From contig JAZDKB010000020.1 in the NCBI GenBank assembly GCA_043803405.1, forward strand, positions 44,064 to 108,063: 64,000 nt of DNA. The letters run 5' to 3'. The stretch comes from Spirochaetota bacterium. GTDB taxonomy: Bacteria > Spirochaetota > UBA4802 > JAFGDQ01. The stretch's first letter is position 1, and the number at the start of each line of letters is the position of its first letter. Shown here piece after piece: positions 24,001 to 54,000 of the stretch. Made by a program: the position numbers.

Positions 24001-27000
24001 CTTCTACGGCAAGAGTAAGATAGTCTGCTTCGATATACAGTGTTTTGTATTTGCCCCTGCCGTAATTTTTAATTGTTTCAGTTGATGCATCGTTATATGC
24101 TTTTTCCTCTTCTTTATGATTAGCTGTATAATATGATAAAGCAAAATTCAACCTGTTCCATGGGAAGAGTAAATATGAAGGATACATATTGAAGCCGTAA
24201 GTCTGGCTTGTCCATATTGACCATACCATTGTTGTCGTATCATGCTGATGCGCATAACTGGTTTCCTTTGGATCGGAATAAGCCGCATACGTGCTGGATT
24301 GCTCATAGAAATATAAATTGCCCTTAAATTTAAATTTCCCATGTTCGTAATTTACATACGGGGCTATTGCGTAATCATAATATTCCGGCCACCTGTTTGA
24401 CATATTACCCAGAACCTTATCATTGTCCTGTGCCTGCCAGTAAGGATTATTATTGACATCATAAGTATACATGTCTTTTAGATCTGAAGTATAGACACTG
24501 TTTTCCATTTTAGTATGATTATAAAATGACGATACTCCTGCTTCTAAATTAGGGGTGATATGGTATCCGGCTTTTCCGCTAACTTTATATTTTTCATGTT
24601 CTGTATGGTCCCATAACCCTTTATCATTAAGATAGTCATCGGCTGCAGAACTCAATGGATTATCGTAAATATTATTAAGAGTACGTCCATAAAGATCATA
24701 ACGTGAAATCTTTAACAGCCATTCCTCGCGTTTTTTCCGGTCAAGCTTACCAGATATTGTATATCCCCTTAATTTGTCATACGATCCGGATATATAATAA
24801 AAAAAGTTGCCTATGGGCGCGCCCTGTGAAACGCTAGCTATATAATTTCCATGTTCGCCGTATTCGGCAGAAATATTGGCATACAATTCGATAGGTTCTT
24901 TCTTAATAAGGTTGATTGAACCGACAGTGCCCCTTGCACCATATAAAGCTGAGCATGTGCCGCGGCTTACAACTATCTCCGATATATCCAGCAGTCCTAT
25001 GTTATCAATGTCCATACTGTCGCTGTATGCATCTATTACAGGGATGCCGTCTATAAGTATGGCTATTTTTGACATATCATATCCACGCATTTTAAACTTT
25101 GTAGTACCCTTTCTTTCAGTTGCTATCTGTATGCTGGGTACCTGGTGCAAAACATCTTTCAACAGTTTATCGCTTCTTGCTTCTATATCTTCTGCCGTAA
25201 CCTCAGTTGTTGTGCTAGCCTTATCTATTCTTTTACCCCGGCGTCCCTTAACAATTATAGGTTTTGTTTTGTTTCCATCTTTATTTTCAGTTATTTCAAC
25301 CGGCTTGTTCTGATCTTCCAATGGCTCCTGCGATTGTACATCAGCTGCAGATTTTTCCGCTTCTTTTACTTCCTGCGCTTTTAGTGAAATAACAAATACA
25401 AGCAGAAATAACATCATCAGTCTCAGTAATCTCATTGCTATACTTCTATTTGTAAAATTAATGTTTGCATAAGCAAAGAATGCCGGTTACTATTCCGGCA
25501 TTCTTTGCTGTTTATCTGGTATTATATTGATTGAATAAAATAATTATTCATAAACTGCAAAAGCTGGTGGATTTTTCCCCGAATAACTATATTCATAAGC
25601 AGTACCGATGAGCTCAATTCTGGCAGGGAAATTTATTTTTGTTCCGCTAACCATAGTGTCCGGATCTGGGGTGGAATCAATCTGGCAAACAAAATCATAA
25701 TCCGGTAAATAATAAGCATTCGGCATATCAGTCCATGCCCAGTTTGTTGCTGTAAAAGTATCATCAACAGCAACAATCTTATATTCATAAGAACCAGGAA
25801 CGTCCGTTACATAATCAGTAATAAACTGATCCAGTGAAATTGCCTTAACACTAGTGTAAGTTGTTGCACCGTCTGTAAAGCTTATTGTCGATACAGTGAA
25901 TTTGGTACTTGTTAAACCAGTATATGCGTTATACTCTGCATCATTAACATAGCTCGTTGTAGTTGCCCCGACTTCAAACGTAGCGATTGTACCGGATGCA
26001 TCTGGTCTTTTTACATCAATCTTACGGAACATAATTATATCATAAGCATATTTATTATTATACAGGTTTTTAAGAGAACCTCCGGCAGACTGTGTTAGAG
26101 GGGAATGTATTTTTCCGGAATAATTTAAATCAAGCAAATAAAACTGGTTAAACTGATCCCATCTTAAATCACCTGCGTAAAATGGTGCACTGCCTTTGAA
26201 CTTTGAACGGTTATCAAATTGATCATTATTGGAAACAACCACATATGAATACAATTTTCTGGCGTCATTAGTTAACAAAACAGCGTCAGGATCCGGTGTT
26301 ACTGAATTTACAGTATTCTGGTCTACAAACTGATCAACTTTATATCCTGAAACGGTGCCACCAGAGGTGTTATAAGTAATCCCGGTTGTTAAAGTATAAC
26401 CGGAAAACAAAATTGCCGCTTCATCATCAACCATTTTCCCCGGATAATTCGTTAAAAAATCCGTTTGATCCGGGAATGTATAGTGTAAATATGCGGATGC
26501 GCTGGTTTTTTTAGTAGCAATAAAATCTTGTCCGGTTACATTAACACTACTTACCGTAACGGAGATACTATTCTTATCAAATGAATATCCTGATGGTAAA
26601 GGCGTGATTATGTAATAGCCGTTTATACAATTTAAAAATGTATATTTTCCATCGGCATCAGTAATTGCTGAATTTCTTGCCAATGTGCCGCTTGTACCGC
26701 TTAATTCAACGCTAACATGCGCAAGCCCTGTACCGCCAACAGTTATAGTACCCTGAATAGAATATCTGGGTTCATCGACAGTGGTAGTGTTTGAAGTTGA
26801 ATCGCTGCCGCACGCGCTAAAACCGAGCGCAAGTCCTAAAACAAATAATAAGCTAAATAGCTTTTTCATAAAAAATCCTCCATGTAAAATAAGTTTTTTA
26901 TCGATATGTCTAAACGGACATATCGTATATTTTTGTCAAGACATTTTCTGACCGGGAAGTCATTAAAGGCCTGATAAATTCCGAAGATAGATTTACTATA

Positions 27001-51000: not shown

Positions 51001-54000
51001 CAGTAGGCCCTACCAAAACAGCTTCCGCTCCATCGCGTTTCAGGCGGAGGATATCTTCAAGAGTGTTGTTGATAAGCGTAGTGCCTGTTATAATCAGCAG
51101 ATCGGCCGATGCTATGCATTCATCGGCTTTTTCAGGAGGGCAGTAATATTGCATCTCATCCGCTTTTAGCGTGCGTGTATCTTTTTCCAGAATATGGAAA
51201 TGCCGGCCGCGGCGTTTAAGTATCCGGATATAGGGCACAAGAGCGCCTATGACTACGACCTTTTTGTCGATCGGGATGTTTTTATTTTCAACAGGATCAG
51301 CGAATTCCAGATTATATACAGCCGGAGGAGTCCTGTGCCAGCATGTTGCGGAAAGGGCATTCAGAACAGCAATCCCCAATGCTGTCTGCAAAGGCCCTTT
51401 TTTATAAATATTATCAATATATTCGGAAACTGGTTTTCCTGCCAGCTTACCGGAATCCGGCATGGCGCGCAGGGAACTGGGACAGCAGACTGCTTCAGGG
51501 ATTTCTTTTGCAGGCGTAAGACAGATACCTCCTTCTCCGTTTGAAAGCTTAACACCTGAAAAAAACAGCCCAACAACTGCTCTTTCGACATTAATTGAGT
51601 TAATTTCACGGCCGAGCATATTACGTATTTGCTCTGCTGTTTCCATTAATATATTATAATTATAATTGATATTTTGTTTTGATGCCAACAGAATGCCTCC
51701 TTTTATAATTATTTTGTTTTTATCGATATGTCCAAACAAACATAACGTATATTTCTGTCAAGACATTTAAAGCAAAAAATTACGGGTTTTTATCCTGTAT
51801 AATAACTTGACAAAATAAAAAATAACATTTAAATGGATGAACATGAACGATCTGAAAATTGATATAGGATATAAAATCTGGATTAAGAACAAGGGAAATG
51901 CCTTTGGGAAAGGGCCTTATACGCTTTTAAAAAATATTGAATCAATGGGTTCGCTCAGCCAGGCGGCCGCTGCAATTAAAATGTCTTACAGGGGAGCGTG
52001 GGGCCTTATTAAAACCTGCGAAGAAAGACTCGGTTTTACTCTCATAGAACGCCAGGTCGGCGGTTCCAGCGGAGGCTATTCCAGATTAACATCCGATGGC
52101 ATGGAATTTATCCGGTGGTATGAAAGTTTAAATAAAGAAGTTAGCGATGCGGTCGAAAAAATATTCAATAAAAAACTGAATAAATTATTTAAAGATAAGA
52201 AAAAATAAAGTTCCCCAGGCTAAGCCCCGGCGCTATCGCACCTGCTTCCGCCTTTGGCGTTAGCTGGAAGGCTTGTTTATCAGCGGGATAACTTTTTCTT
52301 TTAATATGCGTCCGTTGATATTCCTATAATATACTGCAGGTTTTACCAGCGCTGATAATTTTCCATCTGCTTCCACACAGACAACTCCGCCGGTAGGTAT
52401 CCCGTAGCCTTTGCTGTTTTCCCCCATAAGCATAAGCGCTGTCTTTAACTCCTCCCATCCGTCTGCTTCCGCGTGGGCGTCGCACAGAACAGGCGCTATA
52501 CCCATGCACCTGAAAAGCTCCGCGCTCGAATCATCCATGGGATTTCTCCACCGCACCCAGTGCGTCCCCAGCATTATACTGCCTGCCGAAAGCCCGAAAA
52601 ACAAGACACCGTTAGCGTGTAAGTTCCTTAAAAACGGCGTGAGCCTGTGCTTATCCAGCCAGTACATACCTTCATCTACATCGCCTCCTGATACAAACAC
52701 AGCATCTGCTTTTTTCAAGATAGATTTAGCCGATTTAATATCTGCATCGTCATCTGCCAGAAAAATCTGCGTTACTTTAGATGCGCCCGCTCTAGTTAAA
52801 TAATCTCCTGTGAATTCAAAGAACGATGGATCATCGCAATTTGCAGTGCCGATATATGCGACATGCGGCTTTTCCTTTCCTGTTGCCTGCAATATTTTCT
52901 TAAAAAGAGGCAGCAGCGAGCCAGGCCTTCGCCAGTTGCCTCCTGCTATGAGATAAACAGGTTTTATTTTTTTCAATTAAAAAGCTCCTTTGGATCAAAT
53001 TCAAAATGAGCCTGAGTGCGGCGGTATTTCCCCGAAGCTGCGGGCGCTATATCTTTGCAAAAGTCAATGTTCAGTTCCGCATCACTGCCGTACAGTAAGC
53101 GCATTTGCTTCTTAATGTTGTCAGTTAAGCCGGCCGGGTTGCCGCCAGTCATTATTTTCAGAGAATATTCATTCCGTGAGAATTGATCCAGGTGGTAATC
53201 GCGTATGCCGTCTGTTTTTAAGAGCGCATCGTCGAGTTGTTTTGTAGTAACAAGATTTCCTGCTGTAGCAAAAGTCGCATTTGCCGTGCGGCCTTCTATT
53301 GATTCAAGTATGTATCCTTCATTTCGGCCGCATGGACATGAATGATCGCTTAAGCTTACAATGTCGCCCACGTCGAACTTTATCAGCGAAGTCCATTTGT
53401 TGTTGAATATGGTCACTAATATACGGCCTTTATCCGGGCCGCCGTGCATGTTTTTCAATGGCTGAAAATCTACCCTGCAGAAATCCGTATTCTGATGATA
53501 TGTGCCGTGCTCGCACTGCATAAACACATATCCTGTTTCAGTTGTGCCATAAGAACTTGCCGAGGGAACAGGAAATGCTTTCCGGATATCTTTCCTGTGT
53601 ATTTGCGAAGGAAATTCATAAGTAAATAATATGATTTGTGGCAAATACATGCTGACGCTGTTATCGATCGCCCACCACGACAGCCGTGCCAGCAACGAAG
53701 GATTTGCTTCCAGAATGGCAGGCCTGAACTCAGTCAGCTCTCGCGCCATGCGCGCATATATATCATTGTCCCATTCGAGAGCGCTTGCTTTTTCGTTAAG
53801 AAACAGAATGCGCCCGTTTAGTATGCGATCCTGCATTGGGAGTATACCTGATGAGCAAAACCCGACGTTCAGAGAGCTGGCTAGCTGCGCTTCGCGCGCG
53901 TTATGATTCAGATGCGCGGTGTGAGCATTGAGAGTCCACGACGCAGCTTCCGAATCGTTCCACCATGGCTGGTTCCATATATTTGTTATTTTTTCCGATG

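What a model noticed while it worked through the whole genome (the two positions that open the first line are those of the whole stretch)
25544..52208. A NifHDK paralogue that kept the P-cluster but lost both FeMo-cofactor ligands, inside a metal-uptake locus
The genome has a complete nif cluster (C3, g00091-g00098) and a MarBHDK-type cluster (C15, g01112-g01115). It also has a third nitrogenase-family operon, g02131-g02130-g02129 (C20:76542-80282). Its NifH is 63% and its NifK 46% identical to the genome's own NifH and NifK. The NifD-like subunit g02130 (34% identical to the genome's NifD) has Ser in place of the FeMo-co ligand Cys275 and Lys in place of His442 (A. vinelandii numbering, recalled), while the three alpha-subunit P-cluster cysteines are kept. 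It is therefore not a nitrogenase, although public relatives are named 'nitrogenase molybdenum-iron protein alpha chain'. It belongs to a rare clade. It lies in one gene string with a TonB-dep [...]
Evidence so far: Ligands: in the alignment with the genome's own NifD, NifE and MarD, NifD has 'VVMCHRSINY' and 'QLHSYDYSGPY' where g02130 has 'LFSSDKAVAD' and 'FFKTDQYRFDY'. The P-cluster motifs GCxYxxCKG, HGPxGC and STCPVGLIGDD are kept. Clade: a search of 5.8 billion proteins finds 12 other clusters at 50-77% identity, then a gap to true clostridial NifD at <=43%. In all 13 clade members the Cys275 column is Ser and the His442 column is K/N/Q, with clade-specific SDK and CFFxxD(D/Q)YR motifs. 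All 5 true NifD in the same alignment have Cys and His. Identities are from call 96. Rarity: none of the 80 best loci from 185,579 species genomes is a clade member (all <=47% identity, call 95). Regulation: four pro [...]
(Added by a program. Inside this text positions count along the whole contig: contig position 44,064 is position 1 of the stretch shown here. "Call 12" and the like, gene names such as g00115 and contig names such as C1 are that model's own, and its searches are not shown. The text may have been shortened before it was handed on; [...] marks where a part breaks off. The agent that wrote the report below was given it as the finding of a first reader that could run no searches.)

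Follow-up and report, generated by a model that had tools for sequence, protein, structure and literature searches.

The report
Nitrogenase-derived reductase wired to molybdenum uptake
A rare offshoot of nitrogenase has lost the pocket that holds the nitrogen-fixing cofactor, always sits in one operon with a molybdate-type importer, and is switched by molybdenum-sensing elements, so it probably helps anaerobes obtain molybdenum or tungsten rather than fix nitrogen.

Summary
Window 32479-36219 (- strand) encodes a NifH/NifD/NifK-like trio. The D-like subunit keeps the three P-cluster cysteines. It has Ser for the FeMo-co cysteine and Lys for the histidine. The K-like subunit keeps all its P-cluster motifs.

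The clade is real: 13 clusters, then a gap to true NifD at 43% identity or less. It is under purifying selection. The claim that no species genome holds it is wrong. I found it in six other genomes, one of them cultured (Pelotomaculum terephthalicicum JT) and one closed.

New findings:
- In 10 of 11 loci the trio directly follows a binding protein, FecCD permease and ATPase. The eleventh locus is cut. The binding protein resembles the molybdate/tungstate binder MolA.
- A Moco riboswitch leads the operon in Pelotomaculum.
- ModE-type operators precede it in the window and in L003.
- MoeA, XdhC, FmdE or DUF364 genes flank it in 5 of 8 lineages.
- Three carrier genomes, one of them closed, have no NifB, NifEN or true NifDK.

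Best reading: an ATP-driven reductase that serves molybdenum/tungsten acquisition. Its substrate is unknown.

The parts
35389..36219 (-). NifH-like Fe protein (ATP-dependent electron donor)
   Evidence: PF00142 at 404 bits. TIGR01287 nifH scores 434 bits against a cut-off of 394. P-loop GKGGIGKST and the cluster cysteines in GVGCAGRG and DVVCGGF are present. 63.0% identical to the genome's own NifH.
33849..35384 (-). NifD-like alpha subunit: P-cluster cysteines kept, FeMo-co ligands lost, pocket remodelled
   Evidence: 1MIO_A E 3e-109, with Cys to Ser and His to Lys. Clade-wide pattern. TIGR01282 nifD scores 367 bits against a cut-off of 653.55, so it fails. dN/dS 0.07-0.17.
32479..33834 (-). 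NifK-like beta subunit with all P-cluster motifs
   Evidence: 1MIO_B E 1.6e-157 over the full length. GCQPLGA, HGSSGC, TTCLSE and TPSFTGSH are kept. TIGR01286 scores 355 bits against a cut-off of 427.
36247..37032 (-). ABC ATPase of the type II importer; ends 27 nt before the NifH-like gene
   Evidence: PF00005. Best NCBIfam hits are haem/corrinoid-type ATPases, all below cut-off. Syntenic in 11 of 11 loci.
37023..38180 (-). FecCD-family permease (type II ABC importer)
   Evidence: PF01032 at 292 bits. Syntenic in 10 of 11 loci; L006 is cut.
38271..39404 (-). MolA-like substrate-binding protein with an N-terminal signal/lipoprotein-type leader
   Evidence: PF01497. PDB hits: 4PAG 3.7e-46, 4OVK 1.7e-21, MolA HI_1472 (3PSA/3PSH) 9.9e-17. 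Leader seen.
39530..41872 (-). TonB-dependent receptor 1, first gene of the operon
   Evidence: PF00593. A 63% identical orthologue holds the same place in L003.
42061..42078 (.). ModE-type operator next to a TTGACA box, upstream of TBDR1 and the NifHDK-like operon
   Evidence: Exact TATGTC-N7-ACATA. PWM score 35.6 bits. Sequence context.
32407..32424 (.). ModE-type operator between the NifK-like gene and MoeA
   Evidence: 36.0 bits.
31044..32324 (-). MoeA paralogue (molybdenum insertase family)
   Evidence: PF03453 and PF00994. A second MoeA, 35% identical, lies elsewhere in the genome. A 66% identical orthologue follows the NifK-like gene in L003.
29123..31036 (-). EamA-family membrane transporter and a class I methyltransferase
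   Evidence: PF00892 and PF13649. This methyltransferase is not orthologous to the one in the Firmicutes loci.
27152..28981 (-). ExbB, ExbD, TonB
   Evidence: PF01618, PF02472, PF03544.
23030..26869 (-). SdrD_B-like lipoprotein and TonB-dependent receptor 0, behind the operator at 26905-26922
   Evidence: 39.1 bits.
42167..49536 (-). TBDR2, a MolA-like binding protein, two cytoplasmic SBP_bac_6 paralogues, a CobW/HypB-like GTPase and a soluble ABC ATPase, behind the operator at 49570-49587
   Evidence: Pfam. PBP2b against PDB: 4OVK 2.3e-31, MolA 3.1e-17. The SBP_bac_6 proteins have no signal peptide. Operator.
49695..51739 (-). DUF1847 protein, an 89-aa ORF and a DUF4213/DUF364 protein, behind the operator at 51727-51744
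   Evidence: Pfam. Operator scores 41.8 bits, the best in the genome.
51837..52208 (+). ModE N-terminal-domain-like regulator (123 aa, no Mop domain)
   Evidence: TIGR00637 scores 74.3 bits, below its cut-off of 98.5; PF00126 HTH_1.
16746..21121 (+). Palindromic operator CGTTATAT-N8-ATATAACG (16746-16769), then modD, two modA, modB and modC
   Evidence: Sequence. Pfam: QRPTase, SBP_bac_11 twice, BPD_transp_1, ABC_tran with TOBE.
12578..15432 (-). A further MolA-like binding protein, FecCD permease and ATPase set
   Evidence: Pfam. 26% and 39% identical to the operon's binding protein and permease.
22876..22893 (.). ModE-type operator upstream of a 410-aa ORF of no known family (21276-22508, - strand), with a weaker site at 22588-22617
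   Evidence: (34.5 and 26.5 bits). No Pfam or PDB match for the ORF.

Best explanation
This is a distinct, rare lineage of three-component nitrogenase-family enzymes. It descends from clostridial-type (Group II) NifHDK and has been converted from a nitrogen fixer into an ATP-driven reductase of the molybdenum/tungsten supply line.

Proposed working:
1. When molybdenum or its cofactor is scarce, a ModE-type repressor (diderm hosts) or a Moco riboswitch (Pelotomaculum) releases one transcript.
2. The transcript encodes a TonB-dependent receptor (diderm hosts only), a MolA-like binding protein, a FecCD permease, an ATPase and the NifH/D/K-like trio.
3. The importer brings in a molybdenum or tungsten species that ordinary ModABC does not serve. 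This could be a sulfidised oxyanion or a chelate.
4. The NifH-like dimer uses ATP to push low-potential electrons into the P-cluster at the D-like/K-like interface.
5. The P-cluster hands them to a substrate held in the remodelled alpha pocket, where FeMo-co sat in the ancestor.
6. The product feeds MoeA, XdhC or FmdE-type cofactor assembly.

Shown: the ligand loss, P-cluster retention, selection, operon structure, regulation, neighbours and independence from NifB. Inferred: that electrons reach a bound substrate, what that substrate is, and the hand-over to cofactor assembly.
For: Enzyme:
- FeMo-co Cys and His are replaced in 13 of 13 clade members, while the alpha and beta P-cluster motifs are kept.
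- All seven sequence stretches that I recall as lining FeMo-co differ from the 6 true NifD and are conserved within the clade. One carries a 3-residue deletion.
- The NifH-like protein is canonical.
- dN/dS is 0.07-0.17 for D-like, 0.04-0.09 for K-like and 0.07-0.13 for H-like.
- The clade is monophyletic (SH-aLRT 100) on a long stem and groups with NifD, not with NifE or MarD (quick tree).

Independence from nitrogen fixation:
- G154 (one contig of 3,227,478 bases), G002 and G005 have only this PF00148 pair and no NifB over cut-off. G154 has a single NifH-class gene.

Coupling to import:
- The same gene order occurs in 10 of 11 loci (8 non-redundant lineages). These span Syntrophomonadaceae, Pelotomaculum, HGW-Firmicutes-15 and two diderm lineages.
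- The binding protein matches MolA, the molybdate/tungstate binder of the type II importer MolBC-A, at E 9.9e-17 (PMC4031551 abstract).

Molybdenum signal:
- RF01055 Moco riboswitch at 61-67 bits (gathering score 36), about 100 nt upstream of the binding-protein gene in L001, L004 and L007.
- In the window, 7 operator sites score above 22 bits, and all lie in this locus. A related palindrome stands before modD-modABC.
- They fit the published E. coli and Geobacter ModE sites (PMC545781).
- An operator of the same kind stands before the operon in L003.

Neighbours:
- MoeA follows the NifK-like gene in the window and L003.
- XdhC, FmdE and DUF364 follow it in L030 and precede the importer in L010/L031, beside a selenocysteine formate-dehydrogenase-type gene and two MoeA-family genes.
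- FmdE and DUF364 stand beside it in Pelotomaculum.
- A ModABC-like set and a regulator lie beside it in L010.
Against: - No substrate, product or expression is shown.
- Three of 8 lineages (Syntrophomonas loci L002/L009, L005, L006) show no molybdenum-linked gene or RNA element within the DNA held. They have an AraC-type regulator and methyltransferases instead.
- MolA likeness is moderate. The two best structural relatives (4PAG, 4OVK) have no assigned ligand, and I did not verify the oxyanion-binding residues.
- All 7 carriers also have ModA-type binding proteins, so the system is not needed for plain molybdate uptake.
- No known step of Moco synthesis needs a low-potential reduction (my own knowledge).
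- The ModE-like protein scores below its curated cut-off and lacks a molybdate-binding domain.
- Co-regulation with uptake could also fit a molybdenum-sparing enzyme.
Confidence: 0.5

Rival explanations
1. The trio reduces an organic molecule rather than the metal. Candidates are an imported or self-made chelator (metallophore), or an oxidised pterin precursor of Moco that is salvaged. This would parallel the way DPOR, COR and CfbCD reduce ring double bonds.
For: - Type II importers and TonB-dependent receptors usually carry cofactor-sized ligands (my own knowledge). There are three receptors in the window.
- An EamA exporter-type gene and methyltransferases lie nearby.
- DUF364 neighbours occur in 5 of 8 lineages. 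One DUF364 enzyme acts on a SAM derivative (PMC12930334, passages), and the family was proposed to make pterin-like or siderophore-like chelators (PMC2954201, passages).
- MoeA and XdhC handle the pterin cofactor.
Against: - MoaA and MoaC are present over cut-off in 7 of 7 carriers, so none depends on pterin salvage.
- The methyltransferase is not conserved: it is absent in Pelotomaculum and L030, truncated in L003, and a different one in the window.
- No exporter is seen in the Firmicutes loci.
- The binding protein is nearest to an oxyanion binder among those with a known ligand.
Confidence: 0.2
2. A molybdenum-sparing substitute enzyme. It would be switched on together with uptake genes when Moco is scarce, and would replace some Moco-dependent reaction. 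B12-independent isozymes controlled by B12 riboswitches work this way.
For: - The regulation implies expression at low Mo or Moco.
- Cofactor-repressed alternative isozymes are a known theme (PMC545781, passage).
- The hosts are syntrophs that rely on Mo/W formate dehydrogenases.
Against: - Tight fusion with the importer genes in every observable locus.
- Adjacency to MoeA, XdhC and FmdE, which would have no role for a cofactor-free substitute.
- No candidate reaction is known for a P-cluster-only protein.
Confidence: 0.12
3. The importer carries a corrinoid, haem or ferric siderophore, and the trio processes that. The molybdenum association would be secondary.
For: The best NCBIfam hits of the permease and ATPase are BtuC and haem/corrinoid ATPases, all below cut-off. 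The receptors hit siderophore-receptor models weakly.
Against: - No cobalamin riboswitch or other RNA element was found in any locus searched.
- The only riboswitch on the operon is Moco.
- The operators are of ModE type and are shared with modABC.
- The neighbours are Moco genes.
Confidence: 0.08
4. A real nitrogenase with unusual ligands, or a decaying nif copy.
For: It is closest to true NifDK of all known homologues. Public records name it a nitrogenase alpha chain.
Against: - Both ligands are lost and the pocket is rebuilt in 13 of 13 members.
- No NifB or NifEN in 3 carrier genomes, one of them closed.
- Strong purifying selection and intact frames in all loci.
- The D-like and K-like proteins fail the curated nifD and nifK cut-offs.
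Confidence: 0.05

Closest known systems
Group II Mo-nitrogenase NifHDK (C. pasteurianum, PDB 1MIO)
   Same: Three components. Full-length alignment: alpha E 3e-109, beta E 1.6e-157. The long alpha insertion of the clostridial type is present. All six P-cluster cysteines are kept and the Fe protein is canonical.
   Different: FeMo-co Cys and His are replaced and the surrounding stretches rebuilt. It works in genomes without NifB or NifEN. It sits in an importer operon, not a nif cluster.
NifEN cofactor scaffold
   Same: A NifDK relative that lacks the histidine ligand and is served by NifH.
   Different: The tree puts the clade with NifD and apart from three NifE sequences (SH-aLRT 97). By my recollection, NifE keeps the cysteine and NifEN has a [4Fe-4S] cluster at the interface. 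Here the cysteine is lost and the full P-cluster ligand set is kept.
Nitrogenase-like reductases of Groups IV-VI (MarBHDK, IsrBHDK, CfbCD, DPOR, COR)
   Same: An ATP-dependent Fe protein plus a catalytic core that reduces something other than N2. In DPOR, the cluster at the P-cluster site feeds a substrate bound where FeMo-co would be (review PMC13474568, section 2.4, read in full).
   Different: Those groups branch outside true nitrogenases (same review). This clade groups with NifD, away from the genome's own MarD. MAR keeps the cysteine and uses a NifB/MarB-made cluster. Here there is no cysteine and, in three genomes, no NifB.
MolBC-A, the type II molybdate/tungstate importer of Haemophilus influenzae
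   Same: A class III binding protein with a FecCD-family permease and an ATPase. The binding protein matches MolA at E 9.9e-17.
   Different: About a quarter of residues are shared. The binding residues were not checked. The importer here is fused in one operon with a reductase and, in diderm hosts, a TonB-dependent receptor.
Group IV nitrogenase-like genes beside ABC transporters (C. botulinum, A. oremlandii, C. cellulovorans, M. labreanum)
   Same: Dos Santos et al. 2012 (PMC3464626, passages) noted NifH with NifEN-like genes next to ABC transporter genes. They suggested a coupling of metal transport to cofactor assembly.
   Different: Those are distant NifEN-like clades whose beta partners lack the conserved cysteines. 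No molybdenum link, riboswitch or MolA-type binder was reported there. I could not fetch those loci to compare them.

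Membership tests
Mo-nitrogenase MoFe protein (NifD/NifK) | Three P-cluster cysteines in alpha and three in beta | tested here: met
Mo-nitrogenase MoFe protein (NifD/NifK) | FeMo-co ligands: alpha Cys and alpha His (Cys275/His442 in A. vinelandii numbering, recalled) | tested here: not met
   Ser and Lys/Asn/Gln in 13 of 13 clade members; Cys and His in 6 of 6 true NifD.
Mo-nitrogenase MoFe protein (NifD/NifK) | Score over the curated NCBIfam equivalog cut-off | tested here: not met
   nifD 367 against 653.55; nifK 355 against 427.3.
Mo-nitrogenase MoFe protein (NifD/NifK) | Co-occurrence with NifB and NifEN | tested here: not met
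   G154 (closed), G002 and G005 have only this PF00148 pair and no NifB over cut-off. G000, G001 and G004 do have a separate nif set.
Mo-nitrogenase MoFe protein (NifD/NifK) | Reduction of N2 or acetylene | not testable with these tools
   Needs an enzyme assay.
Nitrogenase Fe protein (NifH) | Curated cut-off, P-loop and two cluster cysteines | tested here: met
   TIGR01287 at 434 against 394. Motifs seen.
NifEN | Groups with NifE in a tree | tested here: not met
   The clade plus NifD separate from 3 NifE at SH-aLRT 97 (quick tree; the careful search did not finish).
Nitrogen-fixation-like (NFL) Groups IV-VI | Branches outside true nitrogenase groups | tested here: not met
   It groups with sampled Group II NifD, apart from the genome's own MarD and two other Mar-like sequences. 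Only Group II NifD were sampled. By the review's default wording (anything that is not Nif, Vnf or Anf) it would still be called NFL.
MolBC-A type II molybdate/tungstate importer | MolA-like binding protein, FecCD permease, ATPase | tested here: met
MolBC-A type II molybdate/tungstate importer | Oxyanion-binding residues; binding of molybdate or tungstate | tested here: inconclusive
   I could not map the residues with confidence from the alignment. Binding needs an experiment.
ModE regulon | Inverted repeat matching the ModE consensus at promoters, and shared with modABC | tested here: met
   set against the consensus in PMC545781.
ModE regulon | A ModE protein with DNA-binding and molybdate-binding domains | tested here: inconclusive
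   Only an N-domain-like protein of 123 aa, at 74.3 bits, below the 98.5 cut-off, with no Mop domain.
Moco riboswitch (RF01055) | Match over the gathering score, in the leader of the operon | tested here: met
   L007 61.2 bits, L001 and L004 66.7 bits, gathering score 36. Pelotomaculum lineage only.

The most novel reading that the evidence does not exclude
A descendant of nitrogenase lets strict anaerobes harvest molybdenum or tungsten from the sulfidised forms that prevail in their habitats, such as thiomolybdates or Fe-Mo-S species. The MolA-like importer would bring these in. The NifH/D/K-like enzyme would use ATP-driven low-potential electrons in the former FeMo-co pocket to release the metal for Moco synthesis.
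Probability: 0.15. Interest if true: 0.92.

Novelty: new variant of a known kind. Interest (0 to 1): 0.8.

Why it matters
Every nitrogenase relative with a known function other than N2 fixation belongs to deep, separate branches. They serve pigment or F430 synthesis, or organosulfur cleavage. Here a branch that groups with true NifD has been refitted, and two unrelated control devices (a riboswitch and a repressor operator) tie it to molybdenum.

How anaerobes get molybdenum where sulfide turns molybdate into thiomolybdate is stated to be unknown (PMC10390477, passages). This operon is a concrete candidate that can be tested. One carrier is a cultured strain and another has a closed genome.

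There is also a practical point. These genes are annotated as nitrogenase and pass nifH-based screens, so they can give false signs of nitrogen fixation in syntrophic and subsurface communities.

Tried and rejected
- **Single-protein locus search.** The search for related loci with the NifD-like protein in metagenome contigs found no relative. I replaced it with a clade-specific DNA motif.
- **L008.** This Ruminococcaceae locus matched the motif but has no NifD-like gene. I dropped it as a chance match.
- **Rfam.** Nothing in the window at the gathering score or at E up to 0.5 over 22000-56000. Nothing relevant in L003, L005 and L010 or in L030 and L009. L031 gave only a SECIS-like match, below its gathering score.
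- **Promoter and terminator scan.** Over 28900-42300 the counts were at chance level.
- **Sequencing runs.** No RNA holder was listed. Two DNA rows held a small share of the sequence, and I did not lay reads on them.
- **Host phylum.** No SusD match and no Spo0A over cut-off. I can say only that the host is diderm.
- **Pterin salvage.** MoaA and MoaC are present in 7 of 7 carriers, so this idea gains no special support.
- **Sole molybdenum importer.** ModA-type binders are present in 7 of 7 carriers, so the system is not the only route.
- **Methyltransferase as a core part.** Rejected.
- **PDB sequence search.** Nothing for the cytoplasmic SBP_bac_6 protein or the 410-aa ORF.
- **Tree.** The careful search did not finish in the time allowed, so only the quick tree is reported.
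- **Literature.** Eight searches found no paper that describes this clade, a nitrogenase homologue under a Moco riboswitch, or one fused to a MolA-type importer. The library lacks most subscription journals, and I opened no supplements.

Full report
**What is there**

On the - strand of the window, one run of genes with short gaps reads as follows:

| Gene | Coordinates |
|---|---|
| TonB-dependent receptor (TBDR1) | 39530-41872 |
| Class III binding protein | 38271-39404 |
| FecCD permease | 37023-38180 |
| ABC ATPase | 36247-37032 |
| NifH-like | 35389-36219 |
| NifD-like | 33849-35384 |
| NifK-like | 32479-33834 |

After a 154-nt spacer that holds its own operator come a MoeA paralogue, an EamA transporter and a methyltransferase. 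ExbB, ExbD and TonB follow. The gap from the ATPase gene to the NifH-like gene is 27 nt.

**Check of the observation**

I compared the D-like protein with the solved C. pasteurianum MoFe protein. It aligns over its full length (E 3e-109), including the long insertion typical of clostridial NifD. It has Ser where the cofactor cysteine stands and Lys where the histidine stands.

Alignment A1 holds the 13 clade members and 6 true NifD:
- The cysteine column is Ser in 13 of 13.
- The histidine column is Lys in 4, Asn in 7 and Gln in 2.
- All 6 true NifD have Cys and His.

The other stretches that I recall as lining FeMo-co are also changed, and each change is conserved within the clade:

| True NifD | Clade |
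|---|---|
| GVV | GLV |
| WGxRR | WGGNR |
| GVSQSxGHHIAN | SxP---GYRxAx (a 3-residue deletion) |
| GGSRxHxY | EDEFxxxxY |
| YEFAHRDDYEG | xxLxxxxGQNE |

A cysteine three residues before the lost histidine (the C of CFF) is present in 12 of 13. The assignment of these stretches to the cofactor pocket, and the A. vinelandii numbers, are recalled and not computed.

The alpha P-cluster motifs are kept. The K-like protein is far less changed. It matches 1MIO_B at E 1.6e-157 and keeps all three cysteine motifs and the serine motif. The NifH-like protein passes the curated nifH cut-off and has the P-loop and both cluster cysteines. The D-like and K-like proteins fail the curated nifD and nifK cut-offs. 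The genome's other nitrogenase-family genes are as stated.

**A real, selected clade**

The search of 5.8 billion clusters gives 12 other clusters at 50-77% identity, then a drop to 43% or less. A quick maximum-likelihood tree of 36 sequences makes the 13 one group (SH-aLRT 100) on a long stem of 1.47 changes per site. It joins this group to the sampled NifD (97) and away from three NifE and three Mar-like sequences. Only Group II NifD were sampled and the careful search did not finish. The branch point inside or beside Group II is therefore open. The shared insertion argues for Group II ancestry.

Pairwise dN/dS among five loci is 0.07-0.17 for D-like (9 of 10 pairs; one was saturated), 0.04-0.09 for K-like and 0.07-0.13 for H-like. 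dS is near saturation, so these are rough values. Still, the genes are clearly not decaying.

**Distribution, and a correction**

A DNA pattern for the clade-specific motif DxYRFDYGGF found 4 metagenome loci and 6 loci in the species-genome collection. Five of those six hold the clade gene:
- two Syntrophomonas MAGs;
- one Syntrophomonadaceae MAG;
- HGW-Firmicutes-15;
- the cultured Pelotomaculum terephthalicicum JT.

The sixth, L008, is a chance match.

Protein searches by order gave these counts:

| Order searched | Carriers |
|---|---|
| The window's own order | 1 of 122 (the window's genome only; 17 others have true NifD at 32-36%) |
| The Syntrophomonas order | 5 of 125 |
| The Pelotomaculum order | 1 of 162 |

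One of the five in the Syntrophomonas order, G154, is new and is a single contig of 3,227,478 bases.

**The link to transport is conserved**

In 10 of the 11 loci with the clade gene, the order binding protein, FecCD permease, ATPase, NifH, NifD, NifK is the same (window; L001-L005, L007, L009, L010, L030). L006 starts inside the ATPase gene. L001, L004 and L007 are near-copies of each other, as are L002 and L009. That leaves 8 non-redundant lineages.

L003, the window's nearest relative, also has the receptor in front and MoeA behind. A 210-215-aa methyltransferase sits between the ATPase and NifH genes in five Firmicutes loci. It is missing in Pelotomaculum and G154, truncated in L003 and replaced by an unrelated one in the window. 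It is therefore an accessory, not a core part.

**Which metal**

The binding protein's best solved relatives are two proteins without an assigned ligand (4PAG, 4OVK). Next comes MolA of Haemophilus influenzae at E 9.9e-17. MolA is the molybdate/tungstate binder of the type II importer MolBC-A (PMC4031551, abstract; bioRxiv 10.64898/2026.10.15.759412, passages). The second binding protein of the locus behaves alike.

Two independent control devices point the same way.

First, in Pelotomaculum a Moco riboswitch lies about 100 nt upstream of the binding-protein gene, on the same strand. It scores 61-67 bits against a gathering score of 36 and has its P3 stem. Regulski et al. discuss the lack of P3 as a possible mark of tungsten-cofactor sensing (PMC2408646, passages).

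Second, the window carries an inverted repeat, (A)TCGnTATGTC-N7-ACATAnCG, next to a TTGACA box:
- It stands before TBDR1, before MoeA, before TBDR2, before the DUF364 gene, before the lipoprotein and TBDR0 pair, and before a 410-aa ORF.
- Its core occurs exactly 8 times in the genome, 6 of them here.
- A matrix built from the six sites finds 7 sites above 22 bits. All are in this locus.
- A related palindrome, CGTTATAT-N8-ATATAACG, precedes modD-modA-modA-modB-modC 16 kb away.
- The repeat fits the E. coli ModE consensus ATCGNTATATA-N6-TATATANCGAT and the Geobacter modDABC site (PMC545781, passages and Table 6).
- L003 has TTGACA followed by CGTTATGCATTATCTTACATAACG before its operon.

A 123-aa ModE N-domain-like gene lies divergent to the DUF364 gene. 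It scores below its curated cut-off and has no molybdate-binding domain. PMC545781 describes such single-domain genes in other anaerobes.

**Neighbours**

Genes of the molybdenum/tungsten cofactor line stand beside the trio in 5 of 8 lineages:

| Lineage | Neighbours |
|---|---|
| Window and L003 | MoeA after the NifK-like gene. The window's MoeA is a second paralogue; both have DUF364. |
| G154 (L030) | XdhC, FmdE and DUF364 directly after the NifK-like gene |
| HGW-Firmicutes-15 (L010, L031) | The same three genes before the importer, next to a molybdopterin oxidoreductase gene with a SECIS-like element, two MoeA-family genes and NuoE/F-like genes. A ModABC-like set and an HTH_17+PBP_like regulator lie after the trio. 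|
| Pelotomaculum | FmdE, DUF364 and a TrmO-like gene, divergent |

DUF364 has been noted next to molybdate, tungstate and vanadium transport genes (PMC2954201, passages). In Methanococcus maripaludis it lies inside a mod operon that is cofit with nifH (bioRxiv 10.1101/2024.03.05.583561, passages).

The three Syntrophomonas-type lineages (L002/L009, L005, L006) show none of this in the DNA held. They have an AraC-type regulator, an ORF of no family and methyltransferases.

**Independence from nitrogen fixation**

G154 (closed), G002 and G005 have only this one PF00148 pair and no NifB over cut-off. G154 has a single NifH-class gene. G002 and G005 are draft MAGs of unknown completeness. G000, G001 and G004 carry a full nif set as well. 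The enzyme therefore needs no NifB-made cluster, which fits the lost ligands.

**How it most likely works**

The preserved parts are those of an ATP-gated electron path: Fe protein to P-cluster. The lost part is the catalytic cofactor. The pocket is rebuilt and conserved.

The nearest functional parallel is DPOR, COR and CfbCD, where the interface cluster feeds a substrate bound in the pocket (review PMC13474568, section 2.4). I take the substrate to be what the fused importer delivers: a molybdenum or tungsten species that ModABC does not serve. All seven carriers have ModA-type binders too. The product would go to MoeA or XdhC-type assembly. This step is inferred.

I tested an organic substrate (a chelator or an oxidised pterin) as far as I could. 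All seven carriers can make the pterin precursor themselves, so salvage is not forced. It is not excluded either.

**Comparison with what is known**

The 2026 review states that nitrogenase-like sequences do not cluster with true nitrogenases, and it lists Groups IV-A to F, V and VI. I read section 2.4 and searched passages, and no such clade is mentioned. Dos Santos et al. 2012 noted distant NifEN-like genes beside ABC transporters and guessed at a link between metal transport and cofactor assembly. That is the nearest prior idea. It concerns other clades and names no metal. My eight searches found nothing on this clade.

**Verdict**

This is a new, rare variant of the nitrogenase-like kind. 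The evidence that it belongs to molybdenum/tungsten supply is unusually clear, though circumstantial. Its chemistry is unknown.

Noticed in passing
window 43913-46049 (two SBP_bac_6 genes), 43221-43916, 42167-43216: Two paralogous SBP_bac_6 proteins (54% identical) have no signal peptide. They sit with a CobW/HypB-like GTPase and a soluble ABC ATPase in the operator-controlled TBDR2 operon. This looks like a cytoplasmic metal-handling set. It has no PDB or NCBIfam match.
   Followed up: partly
window 50493-50762: The 89-aa ORF between the DUF1847 and DUF364 genes is 44% identical over 78 residues to the N-terminal extension of TBDR1. It may be a remnant or a free-standing copy of that extension.
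   Followed up: no
L007 1692-1810 (-), L001 13974-14092 (+), L004 1695-1813 (-): A second Moco-type riboswitch without the P3 stem (72-78 bits) is followed not by a cofactor gene but by a TnpB/Cas12f-like ORF. An insertion may have cut it off from its target.
   Followed up: partly
L007 11736-14054, L001 1735-4052, L010 19094-20030: Pairs of 2-hydroxyglutaryl-CoA dehydratase D-component-like genes follow the NifK-like gene in Pelotomaculum, and one lies 7.5 kb away in HGW-Firmicutes-15. No activator gene was seen nearby.
   Followed up: no
L031 197-255 and 215-1825: A SECIS-like element (44 bits, below the gathering score of 63) lies at the start of a molybdopterin oxidoreductase ORF. MoeA-family genes and NuoE/F-like genes follow. 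This is probably a selenocysteine formate dehydrogenase just upstream of the XdhC-FmdE-DUF364-importer-trio string.
   Followed up: no
window 1-12000: The first 12 kb have 29% G+C, against 39% for the genome and 41% for the locus. This may be a foreign island. I did not look into it.
   Followed up: no
L003 12487-12825: The homologue of the Firmicutes methyltransferase (37-40% identical) ends after 112 residues in L003, so it is probably a truncated gene.
   Followed up: partly
L002 243-399 (-), L009 19592-19748 (+): A c-di-AMP riboswitch (66 bits) lies at the edge of the Syntrophomonas UBA5314-type locus. It is unrelated to the operon as far as I can see.
   Followed up: no
G003 C184 (L025), G004 C1, C13, C27, C34: The Syntrophomonas genomes carry further, more distant nitrogenase-like pairs. 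G004 has 14 PF00148 matches in all. Two of its pairs group with the window genome's Mar-type protein.
   Followed up: partly
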